Part shown: positions 2,939 through 50,776 of the stretch, in pieces
How the letters are laid out: each line of letters begins with the position of its first letter
How positions within the stretch are numbered: the first letter of the stretch is position 1
Assembly: GCA_964384035.1 (NCBI GenBank)
Contig: CAYLIB010000001.1
Span: forward strand, 48,532-112,531
Direction of reading: 5' to 3'
From: an uncultured Candidatus Saccharibacteria bacterium
GTDB lineage: Bacteria; Patescibacteriota; Doudnabacteria; UBA920
DNA: 64,000 nucleotides
Made by a program: the position numbers and the translations under genes
Notes under the pieces: model-generated
What the model saw: the letters and a program-made list of their open reading frames with translations, nothing else
The model's database searches: none
What the model was told of the DNA's origin: nothing

Positions 2939-2957
2939 GTAATTTATTCTTAATTTA

Positions 2958-3190
2958 GAGCTCCCAAATTACTTGTTCACCTTATCCGTAATAAAAAGGA
3001 TTCGAAGAGTCTTTTTATTACATAGAGAAAAGCAATTTGGAATAGAGGAAGATTTAATAGAGAGTGCAGTAGCCAGTTTTGCATAAGGCGTGATAGTAAC
3101 TGGCTTTGCCAGTAACAGATCATGTCAAACTGGTTACAAAGCTCGGAGACAAATCTAACGTGCGTAGGAGGACCTAATGAGGGTGAAAAA
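2958..3190 (+). repeat. R1 structured repeat, copy A (slightly degenerate)
   Basis: 'gagctcccaaattacttg', then a hairpin with a GAAGA loop, then 'aaagcaatttgga', then an AGTT/AACT hairpin. Same order as copies at 17641 and 25191. Confidence 0.6.
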
Positions 3191-3233
3191 ATTTCTTCCT
3201 CCGAACACCAATGAACAAATCTCCAAACAAAGA

Positions 3234-9821: not shown

Positions 9822-9988
9822 AACATTAAACTTCCTCAAGCCACGGATCGCAAATTTGGGGTCAGATTATTGCGCAAATAATATTTAAAACCCAGCTCTG
9901 CTGGTTTTAAAATCAGTAATTCAGCTGTATGCTTAATGCTTAAAAGTAACAACCAAACTTGTGATCCCGTTTTCTGAGCACAAAAATT

Positions 9989-10831: not shown

Positions 10832-10995
10832 CCCCATTGCTCGGGGTTTTTAGTTGCCAAAACACGCGCTTTTAGGTATATTTAGAAAGTTATAAATAAA
10901 TTCCCTCGAATTTACTCATCCTTCTTATATTGAATTTATGCGATTCAAAATATAGCTTTTTCTCGATCCGGGTCCCCCGAGCCGAAAAAAATCAA

Positions 10996-11083
10996 CGGAA
11001 AGGGTGAGTAATGAGAGAAGCCTTAAAGGAATCAGGGTCTCCCTGTCCCTACTTAAGTGGAAAACCATATTTTCCCTCTCATA
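10996..11083 (+). promoter_or_regulatory. conserved leader motif 'cggaaagggtgagtaatgagag' with hairpin (atgagaggg.../...ccctctcat) upstream of infB
   Basis: The same 22-nt motif and hairpin recur at 21590-21635. Here the hairpin is interrupted by a 45-nt insert. Confidence 0.45.
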
Positions 11084-11090
11084 CTATTTT

Positions 11091-13016
11091 ATGAATCTAT
11101 CTTCCCTTTCCGAACAACTAAATTTGTCTATTCAAGAACTTCGCGATAAAGCTAACGCAAAGGGATTTCGTATATCCCCAAGAGCAAACAAGATAGATAA
11201 CCACCTCGCTAAAGAAATAATAGAAGCTCTACAAGTCAAAAAAACTGTTGAAAATAATACACCAACCACTCCTACAAGTATTAATCTCCCACCTTTCATT
11301 AAAGTTAGAGAATTTGCAGAATTATTAAAAAAACCAGTAACTGAAGTTATTAAAGTACTTATCCAAAATGGGGTCATGGCCACCATTAATGAAGAAGTAG
11401 ACTATGAAACAGCAGCAATCGTTGCTCAAGATCTCGGTTTTGAAGTCTCTACCCAGGTAAATAACGAGGAAGAAACATACGGACTAGGTTTCCTACAACA
11501 GGTAATTACCTCCGAAGCAGCAGAAAATTTACAACCCAGATCTCCTATTGTTGCGGTTATGGGTCACGTAGACCACGGCAAAACCACACTATTAGACGCT
11601 ATTCGTAGAACCAAAGTAGCTGAGGGTGAATCAGGTGGTATTACTCAGCATATTGGGGCTTATCAAGTTAAACATAACGGGAAAAATGTTACCTTCTTAG
11701 ATACTCCTGGACACGAAGCTTTTTCAGAAATGAGAGCTAGGGGTGCAAATGTTACTGACATCATTATTCTAGTTGTAGCCGCTGACGATGGCGTAAGACC
11801 ACAGACAGTTGAAGTCATTAACAGAGCAAAATTTACCAATACACCTATCATTGTTGCTATAAACAAGATAGATAAAGAAAATGCTAATCCAATGAGAGCC
11901 AAGCAAGAATTGGCTGAATACGGAATTTTAACCGAAGAATGGGGAGGTAAAACTATTGCTGTAGAAATTTCCGCCAAACAAAACAAGGGCATAGATGATT
12001 TACTCGAAATGGTCTTACTAACGGCGGAAATAGAAAATCTTAAAGCCAATCCAGAAGGTAAAACAGTAGGTACTGTAATTGAATCTGATACCGAACTTGG
12101 CTTAGGAGCCGTAGCTACACTAATAGTCCAAAACGGAACCCTAAAAATCGGTGATATCTGTGTAGCTGGTAAAGCTTACGGAAAAATAAAAAGCATGGAG
12201 AGCGATTCTGGTAAAAAGCTAAAATTAGCACCCCCTAGCTCCCCTGTTAGAGTTTCCGGTCTTTCCACTACAGCAGAAGCAGGTGATGTACTTCAAACAG
12301 TTGAAACAATTGAAAAAGCCAAGCAAATTGCTGAAAGTGTAGCCAAAAGACAAAGAAGCCATACCTTAAAAGGAAAGCATAGTTTACAAGGTGACCTACA
12401 GAATAAAAGCCTCAACTTAATTATAAAAACCGACGTTGCGGGTAGCCTTGAAGCTATCAAACAATCTTTGGCCAAATTAAAGAATGACGAAGTAAAAATT
12501 GAAATTTTAAACAGCGGTGTTGGCGAAGTAAATGAATCCGATGTCCTGTTAGCAGAACCTTCCAAAGCCACGATTATCGCTTTCAGAGCCAAAACAAACC
12601 CTAAAGCCATAAACCTAGCCAAACAAAAAAAGGTTATAATCGATTCGTACGACGTTATTTACGAATTAATCGAAAACATCACCTCTGCCGTCGTTAAAAT
12701 GTTCACTCCTGAATATGAAAAAGTAAGTTTTGGTAAGGGTGAAATACTAGCTATCTTTAGAACAGAAAAATCCGAAATGATTATCGGTGGTAAAGTCACC
12801 GAAGGCGAACTTAGAAAGAATAAACGTATTGCCATTGAAAGAGCTGGAGTTCAAATTGGAACCGCCGAGATCCTAGAACTCCAACAAAGCAAAATAGCTA
12901 CTAAAGAAGTCACTAAAGGAAATGAGTTTGGAATGAAACTCAAAACCAATATCAAACTTCAATCAGGCGATATTTTAGAAAGCTTTGAAGAAAACCTAAA
13001 ACAAAAGAGTCTTTAA
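11091..13016 (+). CDS. infB: translation initiation factor IF-2
   Basis: G-domain motifs GHVDHGKTTLLD, DTPGHEAF and NKID are present. The ORF opens at 11004 inside the leader motif. The likely true start is ATG 11091 (MNLSSLSEQLN...). Confidence 0.9.
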   Translation: MNLSSLSEQLNLSIQELRDKANAKGFRISPRANKIDNHLAKEIIEALQVKKTVENNTPTTPTSINLPPFIKVREFAELLKKPVTEVIKVLIQNGVMATINEEVDYETAAIVAQDLGFEVSTQVNNEEETYGLGFLQQVITSEAAENLQPRSPIVAVMGHVDHGKTTLLDAIRRTKVAEGESGGITQHIGAYQVKHNGKNVTFLDTPGHEAFSEMRARGANVTDIIILVVAADDGVRPQTVEVINRAKFTNTPIIVAINKIDKENANPMRAKQELAEYGILTEEWGGKTIAVEISAKQNKGIDDLLEMVLLTAEIENLKANPEGKTVGTVIESDTELGLGAVATLIVQNGTLKIGDICVAGKAYGKIKSMESDSGKKLKLAPPSSPVRVSGLSTTAEAGDVLQTVETIEKAKQIAESVAKRQRSHTLKGKHSLQGDLQNKSLNLIIKTDVAGSLEAIKQSLAKLKNDEVKIEILNSGVGEVNESDVLLAEPSKATIIAFRAKTNPKAINLAKQKKVIIDSYDVIYELIENITSAVVKMFTPEYEKVSFGKGEILAIFRTEKSEMIIGGKVTEGELRKNKRIAIERAGVQIGTAEILELQQSKIATKEVTKGNEFGMKLKTNIKLQSGDILESFEENLKQKSL

Positions 13017-15216: not shown

Positions 15217-15353
15217 ATTCACGAGCGAAGCAATGTGAATGCGCCAACCAAAAGTAGCTCGCTACTTTTGAAAGGGACAACAAGGTAAACGAAGTGTAGT
15301 CTTTATGGAGCGAAAGCGTAATAAAGACGTAACGCAGTGAGCCTTGGTTGGCC
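15217..15353 (+). repeat. R2 tRNA-cluster spacer repeat, unit 1
   Basis: ATTCAC-gagcgaagcaat-GTGAAT hairpin, then a second hairpin (caaaagtagc/gctacttttg), then the core 'gaaagggacaacaagg..aacgaagtgtagtctttatggagcgaaagcgtaataaagacgtaacg.agtgagccttggttggcc'. Confidence 0.7.
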
Positions 15354-15358
15354 TGTGG

Positions 15359-15433
15359 TGGTGCCTCGGCTCAGAATCGAACTGAGTACGCAAGCCTCTT
15401 CAGGGCTTCGCTCTACCAATGAGCTACCGAGGC
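15359..15433 (-). tRNA. tRNA-Phe(GAA)
   Basis: Acceptor GCCTCGG/CCGAGGC, anticodon loop CTGAAGA, CCA encoded. Confidence 0.8.
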
Positions 15434-15473
15434 GCTTCTATATTCACGAGCGCAGCAATGTGAACCATTTATC

Positions 15474-15549
15474 TGGTGGACGCTACAGGACTCGAACCTG
15501 TGACATCTTCGGTGTAAACGAAGCGCTCTACCAACTGAGCTAAGCGTCC
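15474..15549 (-). tRNA. tRNA-Val(UAC)
   Basis: Acceptor GGACGCT/AGCGTCC, anticodon loop TTTACAC, CCA encoded. A truncated R2 hairpin at 15442-15472 sits just 3' of it. Confidence 0.8.
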
Positions 15550-15575
15550 ATACATATATTATAACTGAGACTATG

Positions 15576-15716
15576 ATTCACGAGCGCAGCAATGTGAATG
15601 TTTTTTGGGTCCCCGGCCACTCGTGGCTGGGGAGAGGGACAACAAGGTGAACGTAGTGTAAGGTTTATGAAGCGTAAGCGCAATAAAGACGTAACGTAGT
15701 GAAGAAAACTAGACCT
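15576..15716 (+). repeat. R2 spacer repeat, unit 2 (divergent)
   Basis: Same ATTCAC...GTGAAT hairpin. The second hairpin is replaced by ccccggccactcgtggctgggg. The core 'gagagggacaacaaggtgaacgtagtgta...aataaagacgtaacgtagtga' is retained. Confidence 0.65.
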
Positions 15717-15718
15717 TT

Positions 15719-15855
15719 ATTCACGAGCGAAGCAATGTGAATGCGCTAACCAAATGTAACTGGTTACATTTGAAAGGGACAACAAGGAGAACGAAGTGTA
15801 GTCTTTATGGAGCGAAAGCGTAATAAAGACGTAACGTAGTGAGCCTTGATTGGCC
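15719..15855 (+). repeat. R2 spacer repeat, unit 3
   Basis: About 90% identical to unit 1. Its second hairpin (caaatgtaac/gttacatttg) has compensatory changes relative to unit 1. Confidence 0.7.
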
Positions 15856-15857
15856 CG

Positions 15858-15942
15858 TGGTGCCCGAGGAGGGACTCGAACCCTCAAGCCTTACGGCATA
15901 CGCACCTCAAGCGTACGCGTATACCAATTCCGCCACCCGGGC
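15858..15942 (-). tRNA. tRNA-Leu(GAG), type II
   Basis: Acceptor GCCCGGG/CTCGGGC, anticodon loop TTGAGGT, long variable arm, CCA encoded. Confidence 0.75.
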
Positions 15943-17620: not shown

Positions 17621-17640
17621 TGAGACCCCTGAGATTCTCA

Positions 17641-17805
17641 GGGCTCCCAAATTACTTGCTTACCTATGAGTTTGTTTGAAAAAACCCGAAGAGGGATTTT
17701 TCAAAAAACAAAGAAAGAAGCAATTTGGGACAAGGAGAACTTGACGGAGAGTGCAGCTGTTAGTTCTGCACCGAACTGACAGCGGAGCTCGTAGACAAGT
17801 TGGAC
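17641..17805 (+). repeat. R1 structured repeat, copy B, between tRNA-Cys and tRNA-Leu
   Basis: 'gggctcccaaattacttg', a GAAGA-loop hairpin (gaaaaaaccc/gggatttttc), 'aaagaagcaatttggga' pairing back to the 5' end, 'ggagagtgcag', an AGTT/AACT hairpin, then 'cggagctcg...ggac'. Confidence 0.65.
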
Positions 17806-17807
17806 GC

Positions 17808-17894
17808 GCCCAGGTGGCGGAACTGGTATACGCTACGGACTTAAAATCCGTCGCCCGCAAGGGATTGAGGGTTCGATTCCCTCCCTGGGCACCA
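17808..17894 (+). tRNA. tRNA-Leu(UAA), type II
   Basis: Acceptor GCCCAGG/CCTGGGC, anticodon loop CTTAAAA, long variable arm, T-arm GAGGGTTCGATTCCCTC, CCA encoded. Confidence 0.8.
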
Positions 17895-18283
17895 CTAAAA
17901 ACACGTTGATAAAGTTAGCGTGTTTTTTAGTTAGTACATTTTCAAAACAAGGGAATCGAACCTTCGCGTTAGCGAAAACTTTAGGGAGTGAACCCATGCT
18001 CTGCTGGGTGAACACATCTGGGCTGGTTCACCAGATCCAGATTTAATAGCCAACCCTCCCTGGGCACCACAAAAAACATGCTAATTAAGTTAGCGTGTTT
18101 TTTTGTTTAAATAAGAATAGGCAAATTGGGGAATCGAACCTGAGCGAAGCGAAATCTTTAGGGAGTTTGAATCCAGCTTTGCTGGTTCAAACGTTCGGCG
18201 CAAGCCTGCGAAGTCGCCGATATATAGCCATCCCTCCCTGGGCACCACAAAAAACACGTTCTATATATGAACGTGTTTTTTAG
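17895..18283 (+). repeat. tandem array of two extra copies of the tRNA-Leu 3' end, each followed by a terminator hairpin and a ~160-nt paralogous spacer
   Basis: 'ccctccctgggcacca' occurs at 17879-17894 inside the tRNA and again at 18054-18069 and 18232-18247. Terminator hairpins at 17897-17927, 18071-18105 and 18249-18281 differ in their loops. The spacers begin 'gggaatcgaacc', an inverted T-arm. Confidence 0.65.
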
Positions 18284-18527
18284 TAATATGATGTACCCGG
18301 AGAAAACCTTAATTACATCATCATAAAACAGGTGAAAAATGGTTTAACCGGCGGAACCCAAAACGCGCGTCTTGAATTCCATATAAAACCTTCTTCCCGA
18401 ATACAAGGTGGAAGTTGGGACCATGGTAAGTCAGGCAAAGGGACAACCCAGCCAATCGATTAGCAGACAACCCAAACAAGGTCGTTTTTTATTTGGCAAC
18501 AACTGCATATACGTTTAAACTAAACTT

Positions 18528-21421: not shown

Positions 21422-21557
21422 ACTCAAACATACCGTAAAAGTGACGGTATTTTTTATTGCCTAATCCCCCATAAAAAAGTACAATACATAGGTACTTTTA
21501 ATAATTTATTAGCGGTTTTTTCTTCTCTTTTTGCCTTCCAAAGATGTAGCATTTCTA

Positions 21558-21635
21558 GGATCCGGCTTTGCCGGGCATAGAAATAACAGCGGAAAGGGTG
21601 AGTAATGAGAGGGAAAACCATGTTTTCCCTCTCAT
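21558..21635 (+). promoter_or_regulatory. upstream motif 'ggatccggctttgccgg', then leader motif 'cggaaagggtgagtaatgagag' with a perfect 13-bp hairpin ending at the start codon
   Basis: atgagagggaaaa-ccatg-ttttccctctcat abuts ATG 21636. The 22-nt motif is shared with the infB leader. 'tccggctttgccgg' also occurs at 31373-31386. Confidence 0.45.
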
Positions 21636-22262
21636 ATGCATTTACAATTTTTCGGACTTTCAAGTTTCAAATTTACAACAAAAGAAGCAGTGGTGGTTAC
21701 CGACCCCTTCGATAAATCGTCGGGCCTCACCCCACCAAGGGGAGGGGCTGACATAGTTATTCTCGCCGAAAAAGAAAACCCCCTCTATTCAGAAATAAAA
21801 GGAATAACCGGCGAACCATTCCAAGCTTTCGACCCGGGAGAATACGACGTAAAAGGTGTAACCATAACAGGTATTCCTCTGAAACAAGAAAAAGGTTATG
21901 TAACAGTATTCCTAATAGAAAGCGAAGACATTAGAATTCTAAACCTAACCCACATTAAAGAATTCTCAATGAAACAGGACGAACTGGAAGATTTAGGAGA
22001 CATAGACATACTTATCTTACCAGTTGGTGGTCACTCAGTAATGGACGCAAGTACAGCTGCAAAAGTAGTAAACCAAGTAGAACCAGCACTTATCATCCCT
22101 AGTCATTACAGTATGGAAGGATTAAAAACAGAGACAGATAAGCTAGAAAAATTTATTAAAGAAATGGGTGGTAAGTCAGAAGAGACAGATAAGATAATCG
22201 TTAAAAAGAAAGACCTAAACCCAGAAATCTCTAAAGTTATGGTTCTTACCCCAATGAGGTAG
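21636..22262 (+). CDS. MBL-fold metal-dependent hydrolase-like protein (UPF0173-like)
   Basis: 'VVVTDPFDKSSG...ADIVILAEK' and 'LILPVGGHSVMD' resemble the beta-lactamase-fold hydrolase family. Weak assignment. Confidence 0.45.
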   Translation: MHLQFFGLSSFKFTTKEAVVVTDPFDKSSGLTPPRGGADIVILAEKENPLYSEIKGITGEPFQAFDPGEYDVKGVTITGIPLKQEKGYVTVFLIESEDIRILNLTHIKEFSMKQDELEDLGDIDILILPVGGHSVMDASTAAKVVNQVEPALIIPSHYSMEGLKTETDKLEKFIKEMGGKSEETDKIIVKKKDLNPEISKVMVLTPMR

Positions 22263-22592: not shown

Positions 22593-25061
22593 ATGGCAAA
22601 CAAAGAAATCGAAAAAACCGACGAATTTAATATCGGTACAGTCAAACCAAGAGATATTCAAACAGAAATGCAAGAATCCTACTTGGACTATGCAATGAGT
22701 GTTATCGTTAACCGCGCTCTTCCAGACATTAGAGATGGTCTAAAACCAGTACATAGACGTATATTTTATGCCATGCACGAATTAGGACTTAGACATAACG
22801 CTAAATTCCGTAAATCAGCCGCTGTTGTTGGTGAAGTGCTCGGTAAATACCACCCTCACGGTGACCAAGCAGTATACCAATCCATGGTCCACATGGCCCA
22901 AGACTTCGCTATGCGATATCCTCTCATAGACGGCCAAGGAAACTTTGGCTCTATGGATGGCGACGAAGCCGCTGCCATGCGTTACACGGAAGCCAGAATG
23001 GATTCACTCGCAGAAGAACTTCTTACAGATCTAGACAAAGAAACCGTTGAATGGCGAGATAACTACGACGCAACAAGGAAAGAGCCTTCTGTGCTCCCAG
23101 CAAAGCTTCCAAACCTTTTACTAAATGGAACTCTTGGCATCGCCGTTGGTATGGCCACAGACATACCCCCACATAACATAAGCGAAGTTATAGACGGCAT
23201 CACAATGCTTATAGAAGACCCAGAGGTAACCGTTGAAGATCTCACTACAGTAGTTAAAGGTCCAGATTTTCCTACCGGAGGTACAATCTACGATATCGCA
23301 AGCATAAGAAACGCATACGCTACAGGAAAAGGAAGCATAGTAATGCGAGGTAAAACCGAAATTGTAGAAACCAAAAGTGGCATGTTCCAAATTATCATCA
23401 ACGAAATTCCTTATCGTGTGAACAAAGCCACAATGCTCGAGAGAATTGCCGACCTGGTTCGTGACAAAAAAATTGAAGGTATAAAAGATGTACGTGATGA
23501 ATCCGACAAAGACGGCGTTAGGGTCGTAATCGACTTAAAAAAAGAAAGTTTACCAAACAAAATACTCAATCAGTTATTCTCTTACACCCAGCTCCAAGAA
23601 ACCTTTCACATGAACATGCTGGCGCTTATAGACGGACTAGAACCAAGGGTTCTAAACCTCAAAAGCATTCTGGAAGAATACATAAAACACAGACAAGTAG
23701 TTGTAAGAAGAAGAACGGAGTTCGATCTCAAAAAAGCAAAAGAACGAGCACACATTTTAGAGGGTTTAACTATTGCGCTAGACCACATAGACGAAGTCAT
23801 AAACACCATAAGAAAGAGCGCAACAAAAGAAGAGGCCCACGCTAACTTAATGAAAAAGTTTAAGTTAAGCACTCTTCAAGCTCAAGCTATCCTAGATATG
23901 AGACTGCAAACACTCGCAGGTCTCGAAAGAAAGAAAATAGACGATGAGTTAAAAGAGAAAAGAAAACTTATCGCAGAACTCGAAGATATACTTAGCAAAC
24001 CAAAGCGTATTCTCGCTATTATAAAAACCGAAATTGCTGAACTCAAAGAAAAATATGGCGACGAGAGACGTACTCAAATAGTTAAGTCCCCTGTTGGCAC
24101 ATTCTCTGTAGAAGACCTTATTCCAGAAAACGAAAGTCTAATATCTTTCACTAAGAGTGGGTACATAAAACGTCTAGCTCCAGAAACCTACAAAGCCCAA
24201 GTTAGAGGAGGCAAAGGTGTCATAGGTACCGGACTAAAAGACGAAGACGTTGTTGAGAAGTTAATTTCCGCAAATACCCACGACGAAATCCTCTTCTTCA
24301 CCAACAAAGGGAGAGTATTCCTAACTAAAGTTTATGAACTACCAGAAGGAAGCAGAACTAGTAAAGGACAAGCTCTGGTTAACTTCCTAGAAATGGGTAC
24401 AGGCGAAACCGCTACAGCAATTCTGACCTTAAGCAAAAACGACTCAGTAAAATTCCTCGTAATGGCCACTAAGGGCGGGGTTATAAAAAAGGTTGCAAGA
24501 GAAGAATTCGCTAAAGTTAGAAGATCTGGACTTATCGCCATAAATCTAAAAGACGGAGATGAATTAAAATGGGTAGAAGGCAGCAGTGGAACAGACGAGA
24601 TTATCCTAGTATCAGAAAACGGAATGGCAATTCGTTTCAACGAGAAAGACGTAAGAGCAATGGGTAGGGTATCCACCGGCGTAGGAGGTATGAGACTTAA
24701 AAAAGGTGACTGCTTAATTTCAATGGATGTTATTGCCAAAACAGCAGACCAAAAAAATCTTGAAGTTTTGGTAATTACAGAAAAAGGTCTCGGCAAAAAG
24801 AGTCCAATCTCCGACTACAAGACCCAAAAAAGAGCCGGCGGTGGAGTAAAGACCCTAAAAATTACTCCAAAGACAGGTAAAGCCGTTGCAATGAATATCG
24901 TTAACAACAAAGATGAAAACGACCTCGTAATCATTTCCAAGCAAGGCCAAACCCTAAGAACACCCCTAAACTCCATCTCCACCCTAGGCCGAGCCACCCA
25001 AGGCGTAAGAGTAATGAGATTAGACGATGGAGACTCAGTGGCTAGCGTAACGGTCATTTAA
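22593..25061 (+). CDS. gyrA: DNA gyrase subunit A
   Basis: Sequence motifs '[11 protein letters not shown]', '[11 protein letters not shown]' and 'DGQGNFGS' plus a C-terminal beta-pinwheel. 822 aa. gyrB is not adjacent. Confidence 0.95.
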
Positions 25062-25191
25062 TAGCGGCAAAGCCGCGAGAAGGGAGGCTCGAATCTGGCT
25101 CTGCCAGTTCGAGGGGCGACGCAAGCCCCCTTAGTAGCAAGTCATGAGATTAGACGATGGCGATAGCGTAGCAAGCGTTACTGTCATTTAG
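25062..25191 (+). repeat. 5' module (homolog of 17442-17545) followed by a second, synonymously recoded copy of the last 15 gyrA codons
   Basis: 25144-25191 'atgagattagacgatggcgatagcgtagcaagcgttactgtcatttag' encodes [15 protein letters not shown]. This is identical in peptide to gyrA 25014-25061. Nine of the 16 codons (including the stop) are synonymously changed. Confidence 0.7.
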
Positions 25192-25380
25192 GGGTCCTAA
25201 ATTACTTGCTTACATATTAGTTTTAGAACAAAGCGCGAAGAGCGCTTTTTTCTAAAACATAGAAAGAAGCAATTTGGGAAGAGGAGAACTTTATGGAGAC
25301 TGCAGTAATTAGTTTTATATCAAACTAATTACGGAGGTCGAAATAAAGTGGGACGAGTAAGTGTGACTGTTATCTAAAAC
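25191..25380 (+). repeat. R1 structured repeat, copy C
   Basis: 'ggggtcctaaattacttg', a GAAG-loop hairpin (agcgc/gcgct), 'aaagaagcaatttggga', 'ggagactgcag', an AGTTT/AAACT hairpin (gtaattagttt/aaactaattac), then 'cggaggtcg...ggac'. Confidence 0.65.
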
Positions 25381-25414
25381 CCTAACCTTAATTAAATATA
25401 AAAATAAGCGACTC

Positions 25415-25783
25415 CTAAACGGGGTCGCTTTCGTTTTTTACCAGTTCAAGAATTCTCCTCTCAATTGTTATAAGATTAACGTTTAAAGGAAAACAAAATT
25501 GAGGAATTTCGGGATATTTCATTTGAGATTCACGCCAACTCTTAAGTGATATAGTAACACCAAAAGATTTCTCATGCTTATCGGTCCAAATCGTAAAATC
25601 TTTACCCTCACCATCGGCAACCGAATGGGGCCTGTGTCTCTTGTATTTGGTTATATACCCTTTCACCTTAAGTTCTTCTAATAATTTCTCGACCTTAGAC
25701 TCCAAATCTCTACCGAATTCGGAATATCTTTTAGATTTTCTTTCACGATAAGCCTGAAAATCTCGTTTATTCTTCCAACCCAT
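25415..25783 (-). CDS. hypothetical protein
   Basis: 122-aa basic ORF. Confidence 0.35.
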   Translation of the reverse strand: MGWKNKRDFQAYRERKSKRYSEFGRDLESKVEKLLEELKVKGYITKYKRHRPHSVADGEGKDFTIWTDKHEKSFGVTISLKSWRESQMKYPEIPQFCFPLNVNLITIERRILELVKNESDPV

Positions 25784-28309: not shown

Positions 28310-28445
28310 ATTCACGAACCAAGCAATGTGAATCTATAACGGGGCCCCCGGGCACTCGTGACTGGGGAGAGGGACAACACGGGGCCACCAAATAACTCGA
28401 CCACACATTGTTTAAAAAAGATTCGAAGAGTCTTTTTTAACATAG
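28310..28445 (+). repeat. partial R2 unit (ATTCAC...GTGAAT hairpin + 'ggggagagggacaaca') followed by a degenerate R1 5' part with GAAGA-loop hairpin
   Basis: 'attcacgaaccaagcaatgtgaat...ccccgggcactcgtgactggggagagggacaacac', then 'ccaccaaataactcg...aaaaaagattcgaagagtctttttt'. Two terminator hairpins lie at 28254-28311. Confidence 0.5.
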
Positions 28446-28588: not shown

Positions 28589-28665
28589 TGGTGGGCGCAC
28601 TAGGACTCGAACCTAGGACCCTCGAGGTATAAGCTCGATGCTCTAACCAACTGAGCTATGCGCCC
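28589..28665 (-). tRNA. tRNA-Ile(UAU)
   Basis: Acceptor GGGCGCA/TGCGCCC, D-arm AGCTCAGTTGGTTAGAGC, anticodon stem TCGAG/CTCGA with loop CTTATAC, CCA encoded. Confidence 0.6.
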
Positions 28666-31319: not shown

Positions 31320-31332
31320 TCAATTTAAAACC

Positions 31333-31451
31333 GATTGCAGATTTTAGTTAATATTAGAATCGTAATTTTAGAATCCGGCTTTGCCGGTTATAAAATTAGC
31401 TATTGACTGAGAGCGTCAATGCAACTAGTAGAAGCCAAAATATGCGATCCC
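31333..31451 (+). repeat. R3 element copy 2
   Basis: 'gattgcagatttt...caaaatatgcgatccc'. The interior contains 'gaatccggctttgccgg' and a ttgac/gtcaa hairpin. It ends 6 nt before the yebC start. Confidence 0.5.
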
Positions 31452-32177: not shown

Positions 32178-32204
32178 AAAAAAACGCCCAAGGCGTTTTT
32201 TTTG
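32176..32204 (+). terminator. rho-independent terminator after yebC
   Basis: aaaaaaaaacgcccaaggcgtttttttt. Confidence 0.6.
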
Positions 32205-32282
32205 TCTTAATCGTCATTCTCTATTCGTCATTCTTCATTCGTTATGCTTTATTCTTAATTCGTTATTCGCTATTCTTCATTC

Positions 32283-32747
32283 ATGATTATATTAGGACTG
32301 GATCCAGGTACTGCCACAACAGGTTTTGCCATAATCCAAAGAGAAAAAAACTTTCCTCTGAAAATTCTGGAACTTGGAGTTATTTCCACTAGTCCCAAAA
32401 AAACCGATGCTGAAAGACTCTGTGAATTGGCGGAAGATATTGAAGCCCTTCTACTAAAATATAAACCGGACAAAGTAGGAATAGAAAAGCTATATTTTGA
32501 AACCAACCAAAAAACCGCCATGACAGTAAGCCAAGCCCGTGGTGTCTTGCTTTACTTGCTTACAAAATACAAAATACCAACTCTCGAACTCACTCCACTT
32601 CAAGTAAAAAGTCGCACTACCGGTTTCGGCAAAGCAGACAAAAAACAAATGCAAACAGCTGTTAAATTACTATTTAAACTAAAAACAATCCCCAAACCCG
32701 ACGACGCCGCCGACGCCCTAGCTATCGCTTTTTGTGTAAGTTTGTAA
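32283..32747 (+). CDS. ruvC: crossover junction endodeoxyribonuclease RuvC
   Basis: 'MIILGLDPGTATTGFAIIQ' N-terminus and 'DAADALAIAF' near the C-terminus. Confidence 0.85.
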   Translation: MIILGLDPGTATTGFAIIQREKNFPLKILELGVISTSPKKTDAERLCELAEDIEALLLKYKPDKVGIEKLYFETNQKTAMTVSQARGVLLYLLTKYKIPTLELTPLQVKSRTTGFGKADKKQMQTAVKLLFKLKTIPKPDDAADALAIAFCVSL

Positions 32748-41068: not shown

Positions 41069-41302
41069 TTAAACTACAGGATCTACTTCTGGTTTTGCAA
41101 AAGGATTACACTTAATAATTCGTTTCACCGACATTAGCATACCTATCACAAAACCCTTCTTCACCACAGCTTGTTTAGCATATTCACTACAAGAAGGGTA
41201 AAATCTACAAAAACCATAAGGATATCTGGCTCTAAAGATACCATGATCCGGCGACAGCGTCTTCTGATATATATTTATTAATAAAATAATAATCGTCTTC
41301 AT
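41069..41302 (-). CDS. yidD: membrane protein insertion efficiency factor YidD
   Basis: 'YQKTLSPDHG...CRFYPSCSEYAKQAV...KRIIKCNPF'. Confidence 0.8.
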   Translation of the reverse strand: MKTIIILLINIYQKTLSPDHGIFRARYPYGFCRFYPSCSEYAKQAVVKKGFVIGMLMSVKRIIKCNPFAKPEVDPVV

Positions 41303-41333
41303 TCTCTATTCGTTATTCTTCATTCACCACTCT

Positions 41334-41672
41334 TCACTTTATTAACTTTACAAACTTTAAAAACTTTATAAACTCACTAGCTATAGCTTTGTCATATATC
41401 TCCATTGCTTTTGGTTTTACTGTAAAAATATAGTCACCATACGCAAATCTCTCCAAATTATCCCTTATAACTACCCTGACTATCCTTTTCATTCTGTTTC
41501 TCACAACAGCCTTCTTGGATACCTTGGTAGAGACAACGACTGTAAATCTTTTAGCTGAACTTTCTGTTTTTTTAAATTTAGCCATAAAAAAAGGACTAAA
41601 AAAAGCCCGCCCCCTAGCAAAGGTAGCTTGAACTTCCCTTGTTTTTTGGAGACGATGCTTTTCAGGTAGCAT
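41334..41672 (-). CDS. rnpA: ribonuclease P protein component
   Basis: 'LPEKHRLQKTREVQATFARGR' N-terminus plus the conserved position after rpmH. Confidence 0.8.
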   Translation of the reverse strand: MLPEKHRLQKTREVQATFARGRAFFSPFFMAKFKKTESSAKRFTVVVSTKVSKKAVVRNRMKRIVRVVIRDNLERFAYGDYIFTVKPKAMEIYDKAIASEFIKFLKFVKLIK

Positions 41673-46233: not shown

Positions 46234-47295
46234 ATGCCTAGCTCTAAATTCTTCGTTATTCGTATATTCTCTCTATTCGTTATTCTCTATTCGTTACTCT
46301 TCATTCCACGCGAAGCTAGCGCCCTTACCATATCTCCTCCCAGATTAGAGACCTCGGCAGACCCAGGTCAAACAATAGAACAAGAAGTAAAAATCATCAA
46401 TGAAGAAAGATCCTCACGAACACTCTATATTGTTCCTCAAAACTTTGAAGCCAAAGACGAAAGCGGAGAACCAAATTACGTCGAAGGCACAGAAAACCTA
46501 GCCGGTTGGATAAAAGTAGCAAAATCAGTAAATCTCGGACCAGGTGAAGAAAAATTTGTAAAATTTTCTATTTCGGTTCCACCCACTGCTGAACCTGGTG
46601 GATATTTTACAGCTCTATTCTTCCAAAGTGAACCCCCTAGCTTTGAACAAGGTGCTGGTATTGGTATAGGTAGCCAGTTAGGAAGTTTAATTCTTTTAAA
46701 AGTTAATGGTGCTATAGGAGAGCAAGCGGGTATACTCGAATTTGCTACTAAAAACAAAGATCGCACTTTCTTAAATCTACCTATAGAATTCTACTACCGT
46801 TTCCAAAACACAGGAGACACGTGGGTTAAACCTTTAGGTGAAGTCTTTATAACAAACACATTCGGAAAAAGAGTAAAACTCCTTACAGCGAACAGGCAAA
46901 AAGGAAATGTGCTACCCAAAAGCATTCGCAAATTCGAAACTGCATGGTTAAATAGCGGTGGAAATATAAAGGAAGACCCAAAAGGTGAAATTGAATACCC
47001 AAAACTAGAAGATTTCTGGGCAAATGTAAAATATCAATATAGCAATTTCGCTTTCGGACTCTACACTGCCAAACTCCATTTAGCTTACGGCACAAATCCT
47101 GTGCAGGTAGGAGAAACAACTTTCAAATTTATCGTATTTCCTTGGCAGCTCACATTAGTAAGTACCATTCTCGCCATAATTATCTTAATTATTCTGAGAA
47201 TACTTATTAAAAAATACAATCAAAGTATTATTAGAAAAGCCCAAAATCAAATTCAAAGTAAAGACAACCCTACTTCCAAACGAGGTAAAAAATAA
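46234..47295 (+). CDS. CscA/DUF916-DUF3324-like cell-surface protein with C-terminal TM anchor
   Basis: Signal peptide, 'ALTISPPRLETSADPGQTIEQEVKIIN', C-terminal TM with K/R tail (WQLTLVSTILAIIILIILRILIKKYN). Confidence 0.45.
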   Translation: MPSSKFFVIRIFSLFVILYSLLFIPREASALTISPPRLETSADPGQTIEQEVKIINEERSSRTLYIVPQNFEAKDESGEPNYVEGTENLAGWIKVAKSVNLGPGEEKFVKFSISVPPTAEPGGYFTALFFQSEPPSFEQGAGIGIGSQLGSLILLKVNGAIGEQAGILEFATKNKDRTFLNLPIEFYYRFQNTGDTWVKPLGEVFITNTFGKRVKLLTANRQKGNVLPKSIRKFETAWLNSGGNIKEDPKGEIEYPKLEDFWANVKYQYSNFAFGLYTAKLHLAYGTNPVQVGETTFKFIVFPWQLTLVSTILAIIILIILRILIKKYNQSIIRKAQNQIQSKDNPTSKRGKK

Positions 47296-49741: not shown

Positions 49742-50776
49742 ATGCGCATCTCTAAATTCTCCATTAGTCATTCGTTACCTGTCCTCCGTAGCTTCAGCGT
49801 AGGAGGATTCGTCATTCTTTATTCTCTATTCGTCATTCTCTATTCACCATTCCCTAAAACTACTTTCGCCCAGTCAACATTGCCGACCGAAAAACCCTAC
49901 CTAAGCCAAAACGCCCTCTCCATAGCACCGTTTATAATCGAAGAGAGCATGGAAAAAGGACAAACAATAGAAAAAGAAATAGAAATTAGCAATATAGGAG
50001 ACGTCCCACTACCCCTAAGTCTCAGTATCAACGACTTCATTCCAGTAGATAAAGAAGGCCATGTCCGCTTTCTTTCCGAGGAAGAAAAAAAAGATGACAG
50101 ATTTTCTCTCTCTCACTGGATCACAATCACGGAACAACCTGAATTCAACATCAAAGCACTAAGCAAAACAAAAGTAAAATTCAAAATTACCGCCCCCGTC
50201 TCGGCTGAACCAGGAACTCATTATGGTGGTTTATTATTTGGCTACGAACCAACAGTCCAAAATATTCCTGGAACGAAAGTAAAGCAGAAACTCGGCGCAC
50301 TTGTGATCATTACACTAGGCAAAGCTAAAGAGCAGGGAGAAATAAGCGGGTTTTTAGTAAACCAAGACTGGAAATCTAAAAGTATATTGGAATTCTCAAC
50401 AATATTTAAAAATACAGGGAGAAGTAGAGTAATTCCTAAAGGAGAAATAGAAATAAGAAATTGGTACGGAAAAATTATCTCAAGTAGCCACATAAACGTC
50501 GACGGTTCGATTGTACTTCCAGAAACCGAACGAAACTTCGTTACTAAATTGGAAAAACCCTTTTTATTAGGCTATTATACAGCAGAGAGTTTTGTACAAT
50601 TTGGTAATCCTAAACAAGAAAAAAGGGTAAAAATGAGCTTCTGGGTACTACCAGTAAAACCCATAATTTCTGTCTTAGCTTTTATTTCACTATTCACCCT
50701 AAGTCTATATTTTGGCCTCAAACGTTACAATCGCTGGCTAATAAAAAAAGTCGGCTTAGAAACTAAAAACCAATAA
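49742..50776 (+). CDS. CscA/DUF916-like cell-surface protein with C-terminal TM anchor
   Basis: 'LSIAPFIIEESMEKGQTIEKEIEISNIGDVPL' plus a C-terminal TM and basic tail. Confidence 0.45.
   Translation: MRISKFSISHSLPVLRSFSVGGFVILYSLFVILYSPFPKTTFAQSTLPTEKPYLSQNALSIAPFIIEESMEKGQTIEKEIEISNIGDVPLPLSLSINDFIPVDKEGHVRFLSEEEKKDDRFSLSHWITITEQPEFNIKALSKTKVKFKITAPVSAEPGTHYGGLLFGYEPTVQNIPGTKVKQKLGALVIITLGKAKEQGEISGFLVNQDWKSKSILEFSTIFKNTGRSRVIPKGEIEIRNWYGKIISSSHINVDGSIVLPETERNFVTKLEKPFLLGYYTAESFVQFGNPKQEKRVKMSFWVLPVKPIISVLAFISLFTLSLYFGLKRYNRWLIKKVGLETKNQ

What the first reader, a model, noticed from the sequence alone, without database searches (positions are those of the whole stretch)
10996..11090. Shared 22-nt leader motif with start-codon-occluding hairpin upstream of infB and an MBL-hydrolase gene
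'cggaaagggtgagtaatgagag' occurs at 10996 and 21590. In both places it is followed by a stem whose 3' arm 'ttttccctctcat' ends at or 7 nt before the gene's ATG (21636; 11091). At 21605-21635 the stem is a perfect 13-bp hairpin. At infB a 45-nt insert sits in the loop. The motif contains an in-frame-looking ATG that creates a short uORF. Both loci carry an upstream 'ccgg…ccgg'-type palindrome. 'tccggctttgccgg' recurs at 31373 before yebC. This looks like a cis-acting translational-control element or an attenuator.
Basis: seen in the sequence. Interest (0 to 1): 0.5.

Follow-up and report, generated by a model that had tools for sequence, protein, structure and literature searches.

The report
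Copied structured leader module in a Saccharibacteria-like genome
The shared 22-mer is the core of a real, clade-restricted ~95-nt module of two hairpins and a ribosome-binding-like linker, copied to at least three intergenic sites, and it probably helps position ribosomes at two genes that lack their own binding site.

Summary
The 22-mer occurs exactly twice (0 expected). It is the invariant core of a ~95-nt module: hairpin P1, a purine-rich linker as complementary to the 16S tail as genuine Shine-Dalgarno (SD) sites, and a 14-bp hairpin P2 that begins with its own AUG.

- **Position.** P2 ends 0 nt (MBL hydrolase) and 8 nt (infB) before start codons that have no SD. The gene's AUG lies outside P2, so P2 does not occlude it.
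- **Origin.** The module is a lineage-specific insertion between a conserved promoter and the start codon. More distant relatives have short leaders without it.
- **Third copy.** A full copy fills the ftsE-ftsX spacer in reverse orientation. This is the oldest and most decayed copy. A P1-only copy precedes yebC.
- **Selection.** The MBL copy is strongly conserved: 95/95 and 50/51 identical where 4-fold sites differ by 46% and 70%. P1 shows compensatory changes. P2 shows only G-C to G·U changes.
- **Databases.** No Rfam, phage or plasmid match.

Best reading (about 0.4): a duplicated repeat co-opted as a "split" ribosome-binding site, like phage T4 genes 38 and 25. Rivals are a passenger repeat, uORF or hairpin repression, and a trans-factor site. 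A transcription attenuator is not supported. This is a new member of known kinds, of moderate interest.

The parts
10854..10882 (+). Context: promoter-like site of infB (TTGCCA-17-TATATT), directly after the upstream gene's terminator. It is conserved in relatives that lack the element.
10912..10923 (+). Anti-linker TTACTCATCCTT in the infB leader. It can form 12 bp (one G·U) with linker positions 11000-11011. Specific to the infB locus.
   Evidence: (duplex -17 kcal/mol, 6/1000 shuffles as good)
10947..11082 (+). Whole infB copy of the module, including the 41-nt insertion.
   Evidence: 85 bits
10957..10991 (+). P1 hairpin of the infB copy (TTTTTCTCG...CGAG..GAAAAAAA around CCGGG/CCCG).
10996..11017 (+). 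The reported 22-mer: linker plus the first 7 nt of P2. The SD-strength core GGAAAGGGTGAG is at 10997-11008.
   Evidence: (-11.3 kcal/mol with a canonical 16S tail)
11011..11082 (+). P2 of the infB copy. Basal helix ATGAGAG/CTCTCAT (11011-11017 with 11076-11082). Apical helix GGAAAA/TTTTCC (within 11059-11075). The 41-nt insert forms a side hairpin.
11018..11058 (+). 41-nt nested insertion. It is unique in all sequence examined and absent from the CAYSUI orthologous copy.
11011..11094 (+). uORF of 27 codons starting at the P2 AUG. Its TGA overlaps the infB ATG (ATGA).
11091..13016 (+). infB (641 aa). There is no SD in the 8 nt (ACTATTTT) between P2 and the ATG.
21457..21485 (+). Context: promoter-like site of the MBL gene (TTGCCT-17-TACAAT), after a terminator. 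Conserved in relatives.
21541..21635 (+). Whole MBL copy of the module.
   Evidence: 108.5 bits
21551..21584 (+). P1 hairpin of the MBL copy (ATTTCTA...TAGAAAT around CCGGC-TTT-GCCGG).
21590..21611 (+). The reported 22-mer. The SD-strength core is at 21591-21602.
21605..21635 (+). P2: perfect 14-bp hairpin with a 3-nt loop. It begins with an AUG and ends directly before the MBL ATG.
21605..21715 (+). uORF of 36 codons starting at the P2 AUG. It is out of frame and overlaps the first 78 nt of the MBL gene.
21636..22262 (+). MBL-fold hydrolase gene (208 aa, PF13483). The start position is shared by all homologues.
31364..31397 (+). P1-only copy upstream of yebC (AATTTTAgaatCCGGCtttGCCGGttaTAAAATT). 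It has no linker and no P2.
   Evidence: 27 bits
25086..25115 (+). P1-like hairpin (CTCGAATCTGGCTCTGCCAGTTCGAG) after gyrA. It belongs to the wider hairpin family, with further members near 3098, 9890 and 18171.

Best explanation
The 22-mer is the invariant core of a ~95-nt, clade-restricted structured module. The module has three parts:
- **P1**, a hairpin kept by compensatory changes.
- **A purine-rich single-stranded linker**, which pairs with the 16S 3' tail as well as this genome's real SD sites.
- **P2**, a 14-bp hairpin whose first three bases are an AUG.

The module has been duplicated to at least three intergenic sites. The oldest copy is antisense in the ftsE-ftsX spacer. The next is the MBL-hydrolase leader, and the youngest is the infB leader. 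A P1-only copy precedes yebC.

In the two leaders it was inserted between an old promoter and a start codon that had only a short, SD-less leader.

Inferred mechanism: when P2 folds it hides its own AUG. It also brings the SD-like linker from 34 to about 3 nt of the MBL start codon. For infB the distance falls from 83 nt in the window (42 nt in the CAYSUI relative) to about 11 nt. This is a "split" translation-initiation region of the phage T4 gene 38 / gene 25 type.

**Shown:** the repeat, its structure, its distribution and its selection. **Inferred:** the effect on ribosome placement.
For: **The repeat is real**
- Exact 22-mer twice, 0 expected. The repeat extends over 71 nt.
- A sequence profile and a covariance model find full copies in the window only at 10947-11083 and 21541-21636, plus the P1-only copy at about 31354-31427.

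**Structure**
- 91.7% of cells are paired, against 58-62% in slid controls.
- 9 pairs have changes on both sides, 6 of them in the 9-pair P1 outer stem. 0 of 500 shuffles reach this.
- P2 shows only one-sided G-C to G·U changes. These keep pairing in sense-strand RNA but not in DNA.

**Linker**
- It is the best anti-SD-complementary site in both leaders: -11.3 kcal/mol, against -9.5 to -12.7 for five clear SD sites of the same clade.
- Neither gene has an SD next to its ATG, and many genes here have none.

**Geometry**
- 3 unpaired nt lie between GGGUGA and P2. After P2 there are 0 nt (MBL) or 8 nt (infB) before the ATG.
- The T4 precedents bring the spacing from 22 to 5 nt and from 27 to 11 nt (PMC3014915).
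- The 41-nt insertion in the infB copy leaves both the basal helix and the apical helix of P2 intact.

**Selection**
- Window versus CAYSUI: 4-fold sites differ by 46-50%, yet the MBL module is 95/95 identical.
- Window versus L015: 4-fold sites differ by 70%, yet linker plus P2 is 50/51 identical. The middle of the same leader is only 56% identical.

**Insertion history**
- Relatives L016 and L018 have the same promoters but short leaders without the element.
- The ftsE-ftsX copy is found in all lineages examined, including L023.
Against: - One full copy is antisense to the ftsEX operon, where it cannot supply an SD. So the module is not intrinsically a leader.
- P2 is conserved in sequence, not only in pairing. 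A pure spacer hairpin would not need that. It hints at a sequence-specific partner or a second constraint.
- The infB copy evolves faster than the rest of its leader. It is about 84% identical without the indel (my estimate from the alignment), against 113/115 for the upstream part. The ERZ1758445 relative has no recognisable copy at infB.
- In full-leader minimum-energy folds the linker is partly paired with upstream pyrimidine tracts. In the MBL copy, two bases of the start codon (U and G) join a weak 3-bp extension of P2. A repressive reading is therefore possible.
- An effective spacing of 3 nt is short if GGGUGA is the pairing core.
- The 16S tail of this organism was not available. A canonical tail was assumed.
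- There are no expression data.
Confidence: 0.4

Rival explanations
1. Passenger repeat. The module is a small non-autonomous dispersed intergenic repeat, of the REP/BIME, ERIC, BOX or Correia kind. It is tolerated wherever it does not harm expression and has no role of its own in translation.
For: - At least 3 full copies plus partial copies, in both orientations relative to neighbouring genes.
- Presence/absence differences among close relatives.
- Modular make-up: P1 occurs alone at yebC. P1-like hairpins occur 7 times in the window against 0.43 expected.
- A nested 41-nt insertion.
- The ftsEX copies decay.
- Copies within one genome are more alike than orthologous copies between genomes. 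This suggests gene conversion.
Against: - The MBL copy is 95/95 and 50/51 identical where 4-fold sites differ by 46% and 70%. A neutral passenger would have decayed.
- P1 shows compensatory substitutions.
- No terminal inverted repeats or target-site duplications were seen at filled versus empty sites.
- Copy density is low: 3 full copies in the roughly 85 kb of this population examined.
Confidence: 0.2
2. Negative translational control. The strong SD plus internal AUG acts as a decoy or uORF. P2 and its weak extension limit access to the true start codon. Expression then depends on melting (an RNA thermometer), on uORF translation and re-initiation, or on alternative pairing of the P2 3' arm with the linker.
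For: - The SD-like linker lies at ideal spacing from the internal AUG.
- The infB uORF stops at TGA overlapping the ATG.
- RNAalifold finds an alternative linker: 3'-arm pairing.
- In the infB leader, an upstream 12-nt anti-linker can sequester the linker.
- In the minimum-energy fold of the MBL leader, the U and G of the start codon are paired.
- Strict sequence conservation of the linker and both P2 arms fits mutually exclusive pairings.
Against: - The uORF differs in every copy. It is 27 codons and out of frame at infB in the window. It is in frame with infB, with no stop, in CAYSUI. It is 36 codons overlapping the gene at MBL. It is 10 codons in the ftsEX copy. There is no conserved peptide.
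- The gene's AUG is outside P2.
- The alternative pairing is far weaker than P2 (-21 kcal/mol).
- The anti-linker is not significant in the MBL leaders (p about 0.3-0.5).
Confidence: 0.2
3. Recognition site for a trans-acting factor. The invariant linker plus P2 is bound or cut by a protein or RNA, such as RNase III, an autoregulatory RNA-binding protein or a small RNA. This would co-regulate the MBL hydrolase and IF2.
For: - Linker plus P2 is conserved in sequence on both arms and in the loop, beyond what pairing alone needs.
- The P1-like hairpin family shares a specific apex, (A)TC-YRGS-TYY-SCYRG, at many intergenic sites. All 7 in the window are on one strand.
Against: - No candidate factor was identified.
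- The infB and ftsEX copies tolerate a 41-nt insertion and mismatches in P2.
- A 14-bp stem is short for a typical RNase III substrate (own knowledge).
- No known RNA family matches.
Confidence: 0.15
4. Transcription attenuator or intrinsic terminator in the leader.
For: There is a stable hairpin in a 5'UTR, and RNAalifold predicts an alternative pairing.
Against: - The scan finds no terminator-like site at P1 or P2.
- No U-tract follows P2: it is followed by ATGCATTTAC at MBL and by ACTATTTTATG at infB.
Confidence: 0.03

Closest known systems
Split translation-initiation regions of phage T4 genes 38 and 25 (Nivinskas et al. 1999; Malys and Nivinskas 2009; reviewed in PMC3014915)
   Same: An SD lies too far from the AUG in linear sequence. 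A stable hairpin between them restores a workable spacing (T4: 22 to 5 nt and 27 to 11 nt; here 34 to about 3 nt and 83 or 42 to about 11 nt). Both arrangements are restricted to a narrow clade.
   Different: Here the hairpin is longer (14 bp) and starts with its own AUG. It belongs to a larger module with a second hairpin. It is repeated at several loci, including one antisense copy. Function is untested.
Dispersed intergenic repeats embedded in mRNAs (REP/BIME and ERIC of enterobacteria, BOX/RUP of pneumococci, Correia elements of Neisseria; own knowledge)
   Same: Short palindromic modules in intergenic DNA, found in either orientation. They are mosaic or modular, polymorphic between strains, co-transcribed with neighbouring genes, and fold as hairpins.
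   Different: Very low copy number seen so far. No terminal inverted repeats or target duplications. One copy is under strong purifying selection. It carries an SD-strength sequence and an AUG.
STAB-SD 5' mRNA stabiliser (cryIIIA of Bacillus thuringiensis; own knowledge)
   Same: An SD-like sequence in a long 5'UTR, far from the start codon in linear sequence. It could bind the 30S subunit without starting translation there.
   Different: STAB-SD needs no adjacent hairpin abutting the start codon. A stabilising effect is untested here.
SD- or start-codon-sequestering hairpins, RNA thermometers, and uORF or translational-coupling leaders
   Same: A hairpin in the translation-initiation region. 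There is a uORF with an SD, and at infB its stop overlaps the start codon (ATGA).
   Different: The regulated gene's AUG and the SD-like linker lie outside the stable hairpin. The uORF properties are not conserved between copies.

Membership tests
Split (hairpin-bridged) translation-initiation region, T4 gene 38/25 type | A sequence complementary to the 16S 3' tail lies more than 15 nt upstream of the start codon, and there is no SD adjacent to the start codon. | tested here: met
   The linker gives -11.3 kcal/mol with a canonical tail and is the best site in both leaders. No SD lies next to either ATG. Caveat: the tail sequence was assumed, not read from this organism.
Split (hairpin-bridged) translation-initiation region, T4 gene 38/25 type | The intervening sequence forms a stable hairpin that reduces the spacing to a functional 5-11 nt. 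| tested here: inconclusive
   P2 is -21.2 kcal/mol with z = -4.6. Unpaired nt number 3+0 at MBL and 3+8 at infB. 11 nt fits the range. 3 nt is short unless the pairing core is GGAAAGG, which gives 7 nt.
Split (hairpin-bridged) translation-initiation region, T4 gene 38/25 type | Destabilising the hairpin lowers translation, and compensatory changes restore it. | not testable with these tools
   This needs reporter or toeprint experiments.
Dispersed intergenic repeat (REP/BIME, ERIC, BOX, Correia, MITE) | Several copies per genome, confined to intergenic DNA, in either orientation. | tested here: met
   Three full copies (infB leader, MBL leader, ftsE-ftsX spacer in reverse) plus a P1-only copy.
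Dispersed intergenic repeat (REP/BIME, ERIC, BOX, Correia, MITE) | Presence/absence polymorphism at orthologous sites. | tested here: met
   L016 and L018 lack it. L015 has it at the MBL gene, but L017 lacks it at infB.
Dispersed intergenic repeat (REP/BIME, ERIC, BOX, Correia, MITE) | Terminal inverted repeats and target-site duplication (MITE and Correia subclass). | tested here: not met
   The ends (AAAATATAGC... and ...CCCTCTCAT) are not inverted repeats. No duplication is seen at filled versus empty sites.
Dispersed intergenic repeat (REP/BIME, ERIC, BOX, Correia, MITE) | Tens to hundreds of copies per genome. | not testable with these tools
   Only about 85 kb of this population's genome (window plus L027) could be read. 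The collection scans were not exhaustive.
uORF / translational coupling leader | A uORF whose stop lies at or near the main start codon, conserved among copies. | tested here: not met
   An ATGA overlap occurs only at infB in the window. In CAYSUI the same AUG is in frame with infB. At the MBL gene the uORF runs 78 nt into the gene.
Start-codon- or SD-occluding hairpin / RNA thermometer | The SD or start codon of the regulated gene is paired inside the hairpin. | tested here: not met
   Both gene ATGs and the linker lie outside P2. Only a weak 3-bp extension touches the U and G of the MBL start codon in the minimum-energy fold.
Intrinsic terminator / transcription attenuator | A G+C-rich hairpin followed by a U-tract. 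| tested here: not met
   The scans find terminators only after the upstream genes, not at P1 or P2.
Any Rfam 15 family (riboswitches, leaders, small RNAs, ribozymes) | A covariance-model score at or near the gathering threshold. | tested here: not met
   The window yields only tRNAs at gathering score. Permissive scans of both leaders give nothing credible.

The most novel reading that the evidence does not exclude
The module may be a portable, self-contained translation-initiation cassette: an SD plus a bridging hairpin. It would spread by duplication within a reduced candidate-phyla-radiation (CPR) genome. On landing it would convert short-leader, SD-less genes to SD-dependent initiation, and then become indispensable there. 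Alternatively, the invariant linker-P2 could be the operator of an unknown trans-factor linking IF2, the conserved 208-aa MBL hydrolase and FtsEX.
Probability: 0.12. Interest if true: 0.6.

Novelty: new member of a known kind. Interest (0 to 1): 0.35.

Why it matters
Gene regulation in ultra-small CPR / Saccharibacteria-like bacteria is almost unknown, and they have few regulators. This case shows a lineage-specific structured RNA module being copied between leaders and then fixed under strong selection at one gene.

If the split ribosome-binding-site reading holds, it would show this arrangement in a cellular genome rather than a phage. It would also give a concrete example of a repeat supplying translation signals to genes that originally lacked them.

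The element is confined to a narrow clade and a few loci, so its wider impact is limited.

Tried and rejected
**Known RNA families.** Rfam gave only tRNAs at gathering score, and permissive scans of both leaders gave nothing credible.

**Public collection scans.**
- The genome-contig scan of the 20-mer gave one true relative (L002) and one chance hit.
- The metagenome scan of the 19-mer gave 5 hits, all chance, with no flanking similarity.
- Two viral scans, phage blastn and plasmid blastn found nothing.
- These scans are not exhaustive. Contigs that do hold the motif were missed: CAYSUI010000005.1, Ga0068519_1000038 and Ga0102523_1000045. Absence in the scans therefore means little.

**Conserved leader peptide.** Rejected. 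The uORF products differ in every copy.

**16S rRNA mimic.** From memory, the linker resembles E. coli 16S around nt 100-125 (GGGUGAGUAAUG). No SSU model hit appeared even at E = 10. I treat this as coincidence; it was not tested further.

**A general closing helix between an upstream pyrimidine tract and the linker.** It is significant only in the infB leaders (p about 0.006 and 0.02), not in the MBL leaders (p about 0.3 and 0.5).

**The 41-nt insert as a repeat of its own.** There is no second copy anywhere in the sequence examined.

**A decayed infB copy in L017.** I saw a resemblance by eye, but neither nhmmer nor the covariance model supports it.

**Promoter inside the module.** The TATAG-like box before P1 lacks a convincing -35 element and does not pass the promoter scan.

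**Protein coding on the opposite strand.** The ORF at 21454-21663 was not called by any gene caller and is not shared by the other copies.

Full report

Yes. CGGAAAGGGTGAGTAATGAGAG occurs at 10996-11017 and 21590-21611 on the + strand. There are no other matches even with 3 mismatches, and none in 100 shuffles.

The similarity is much longer than 22 nt. The repeat finder reports a 71-nt direct repeat, 10947-11017 versus 21541-21611, at 75% identity. A pairwise alignment shows the two leaders are collinear over about 95 nt, apart from one 41-nt insertion (11018-11058) in the infB copy.

At the MBL gene, ATGAGAGGGAAAAC-CAT-GTTTTCCCTCTCAT (21605-21635) folds into a perfect 14-bp hairpin. Its energy is -21.2 kcal/mol with z = -4.6, and 0 of 200 shuffles fold as well.

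- The insert is 41 nt, not 45.
- The insert lies inside the 5' arm, not in the loop.
- At infB the hairpin ends 8 nt before the ATG, not 7 nt.
- TCCGGCTTTGCCGG is at 21561 and 31374.

**2. Anatomy**

I call the parts P1, linker and P2.
- **P1** (10957-10991; 21551-21584) is a hairpin. Its outer stem differs in sequence between copies. Its inner stem-loop is of the type CCGGC-TTT-GCCGG.
- **The linker** (about 10992-11010; 21585-21604) is purine-rich and nearly invariant.
- **P2** starts with an AUG (11011; 21605).

The genes' own start codons follow P2 after 8 nt (infB, 11091) and 0 nt (MBL hydrolase, 21636). These starts are the ones used by gene callers and shared by all homologues.

Both modules lie in 5'UTRs. 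A terminator of the upstream gene and a promoter-like site lie upstream of each: TTGCCA-17-TATATT at 10854-10882 and TTGCCT-17-TACAAT at 21457-21485. Neither P1 nor P2 scores as a terminator.

Neither gene has a Shine-Dalgarno (SD) sequence next to its ATG. In this genome SD use is mixed, and many genes have none.

The linker is the best site in either leader for pairing with a canonical 16S 3' tail. It gives -11.3 kcal/mol, against -9.5 to -12.7 for five clear SD sites of the same clade. The tail sequence was assumed, because no rRNA gene is in the window.

**3. Relatives and history**

The public DNA scans gave one true relative plus chance hits. They turned out not to be exhaustive. Orthologous loci were therefore fetched through protein look-ups.

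- **(a) Identical strains.** These occur in several samples.
- **(b) CAYSUI.** This is a Candidatus Saccharibacteria metagenome-assembled genome, GCA_964434195.1, here called CAYSUI. Its proteins are about 98% identical to the window's, but 4-fold degenerate sites differ by 46-50%. In infB, 223 of 242 differences are at third codon positions.
  - The MBL module is 95/95 identical.
  - The infB module is present without the 41-nt insert and is visibly diverged. Its P1 outer stem is a perfect TTTTTCTCGA/TCGAGAAAAA. Its linker has four changes. One G-C pair in P2 has become G·U.
  - There the P2 AUG and the loop AUG are in frame with infB. A gene caller therefore produced a 649-aa IF2.
- **(c) The organism in sample ERZ1758445.** Its MBL protein is 81% and its IF2 84% identical, and 4-fold sites differ by 70%.
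  - The MBL leader has the module. Linker plus P2 is 50/51 identical. P1 is 74% identical with compensatory changes (TTTCTA/TAGAAA versus TTTCTGCAA/TTGCAGAAA). The middle of the same leader is only 56% identical.
  - Its infB leader has a different insert and no detectable module.
- **(d) The organism in sample SRR23592405.** Identities are about 77%. Both genes have the same promoters but short leaders (caataggttATG and ttttaagcacaaATG) with no module.
- **(e) A third full copy.** It fills the 129-nt ftsE-ftsX spacer in reverse orientation relative to the operon.
  - It is present in CAYSUI.
  - It is present in contigs from the same samples as the window's own strain (L025-L027). I infer these are the same population.
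  - It is present in diverged form in a relative whose FtsE is 93% identical (L021; 58 bits).
  - It is recognisable to the covariance model even in the SRR23592405 organism (L023; 30.9 bits, E about 5e-4).

The inferred order of appearance is the ftsEX spacer first, then the MBL leader, then the infB leader. A P1-only copy precedes yebC at 31364-31397.

**4. Structure and selection**

I scored P1 plus P2 on an alignment of 8 distinct copies.

| Measure | Observed | Control |
|---|---|---|
| Cells forming standard pairs | 91.7% | 58-62% when partners are slid |
| Pairs with changes on both sides | 9 (6 of them in the 9-pair P1 outer stem) | reached by 0 of 500 shuffles |

RNAalifold recovers P1 independently. 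P2 varies only by one-sided G-C to G·U changes. These preserve pairing in sense-strand RNA but would be mismatches in DNA or in antisense RNA. This is weak evidence that the sense RNA is the relevant form.

The MBL copy is under strong purifying selection. Zero differences in 95 nt is very unlikely when neutral sites differ by 46% (P about 2e-26). The same holds for one difference in 51 nt when neutral sites differ by 70%.

A caveat applies. Intergenic DNA in general is much better conserved than synonymous sites in this pair of genomes. Against that background, the infB module stands out as less conserved than the rest of its own leader. The module is 59% identical with the indel, and about 84% without it (my estimate from the alignment). 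The upstream part of the leader is 113/115 identical.

Copies within one genome share an identical linker, while orthologous ftsEX copies in different genomes have drifted. This suggests gene conversion between copies. That is an inference.

**5. What it most likely does**

Shown:
- A duplicated, clade-restricted structured module sits in two 5'UTRs.
- It carries an SD-strength linker and a hairpin that abuts start codons lacking an SD.

Inferred:
- Folding of P2 hides the internal AUG at the base of the helix.
- It brings the linker from 34 nt to about 3 nt of the MBL start. The figure is about 7 nt if the pairing core is GGAAAGG.
- At infB the distance falls from 83 nt (window) or 42 nt (CAYSUI) to about 11 nt.

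This is the arrangement proven for phage T4 genes 38 and 25, where spacings go from 22 to 5 nt and from 27 to 11 nt (PMC3014915).

Two further points fit. The 41-nt insertion leaves both the basal and the apical helix of P2 intact. The ancestral state was a short leader without an SD.

I give this about 0.4. The reasons for caution are:
- The antisense ftsEX copy cannot work this way.
- P2 is conserved in sequence rather than only in pairing.
- In full-leader folds the linker can pair with upstream pyrimidine tracts. This is significant only at infB, where TTACTCATCCTT at 10912-10923 complements the linker over 12 bp.
- In the same folds, two bases of the MBL start codon join a weak extension of P2.

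**6. Rivals**

- **Passenger repeat (0.2).** It fits the copy pattern, the orientations, the modularity and the decay. It does not fit the conservation of the MBL copy or the covariation in P1.
- **Repression by uORF, decoy or hairpin (0.2).** It fits the ideal spacing between the SD-like linker and the internal AUG, and the ATGA overlap at infB. However, the uORF frame, length and peptide differ in every copy, and the genes' AUGs lie outside P2.
- **Trans-factor site (0.15).** It would explain the sequence conservation. I could identify no factor.
- **Transcription attenuator (0.03).** It lacks any U-tract.

**7. Comparison with known systems, and novelty**

There is no Rfam family, phage match or plasmid match.

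The module works like a split translation-initiation region and looks like a low-copy dispersed intergenic repeat. It meets some defining features of each but not all (see the membership table).

I class it as a new member of known kinds. It is a real and tidy example, but confined to a narrow clade and a handful of loci, and it has no experimental data.

Noticed in passing
window 3098-3112, 9890-9904, 10966-10980, 18171-18185, 21560-21574, 25093-25107, 31373-31387; also L019 1853, 3326, 8866, 16461 and L012 13383: There is a family of intergenic hairpins with a common apex, (A)TC-YRGS-TYY-SCYRG, and variable covarying outer stems. The window has 7 copies, all on the + strand, against 0.43 expected. 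P1 of the module belongs to this family. Its function is unknown.
   Followed up: partly
window 2957-3233, 17640-17806, 25190-25357: A ~170-nt repeat occurs three times at 75-88% identity. Long-range complementarity (CCCAAATTACTTGCTT ... AAGCAATTTGGG) and internal hairpins suggest a structured RNA. One copy lies between tRNA-Cys and tRNA-Leu. A permissive Rfam scan of 25050-25420 found nothing.
   Followed up: partly
window 17808-18290: tRNA-Leu(UAA) is followed by two ~105-nt units. Each ends with a copy of the tRNA 3' end (CCCTCCCTGGGCACCA) plus a terminator hairpin (18046-18106 and 18224-18284). They look like scars of repeated integration at the tRNA, or tRNA-derived pseudo-units. There was no Rfam hit.
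   Followed up: partly
window 32195-32293, 41290-41357, 46257-46317, 49793-49856: Arrays of a 7/14-nt unit (ATTCGTCATTCTCT-like) recur in several intergenic regions. Some lie directly upstream of genes. They could be protein-binding arrays or contingency repeats.
   Followed up: no
window 15217-15862 and 28310-28348: Palindromes ATTCACGAGCGAAGCAATGTGAAT and 70-140-nt repeats (86-92% identical) lie between the minus-strand tRNA genes Gly, Phe, Val and Leu. One more lies near tRNA-Ile.
   Followed up: no
window 28589-28665 (-): ARAGORN calls a tRNA-Ile with anticodon UAU. This is uncommon in bacteria, which usually read AUA with a lysidine-modified CAU tRNA (own knowledge).
   Followed up: no
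window 4557-31313 versus L019 and L012 (CAYSUI MAG): Proteins are about 98% identical while 4-fold sites differ by 46-50%. Yet many intergenic regions are 95-100% identical. Intergenic DNA is therefore far more conserved than synonymous sites. Identity also varies between genes (77-98%), which suggests recombination.
   Followed up: partly
window 31320-31418 versus L012 19457-19906: Between the TP_methylase gene and yebC, the CAYSUI relative carries an extra 124-aa gene (PF05635, 23S rRNA-intervening-sequence protein). The window has only the P1-only hairpin there.
   Followed up: no
L017 4683-5202 (relative from ERZ1758445): The infB leader of this relative holds a different ~165-nt insert with its own hairpins. 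The infB reading frame there is interrupted near the 5' end (the gene was called as 546 aa). This could be a sequencing error at 3.8x coverage or a pseudogene.
   Followed up: no
window 52608-63047 (+): A single 3479-aa ORF contains internal ~135-160-nt and larger repeats (for example 59832-60779). It is probably a giant repetitive surface protein.
   Followed up: no
tools: genome contigs and metagenome-contig scans: The exact-match scans missed contigs that do contain the pattern: CAYSUI010000005.1, Ga0068519_1000038 and Ga0102523_1000045. A negative result from these scans is therefore not evidence of absence.
   Followed up: yes
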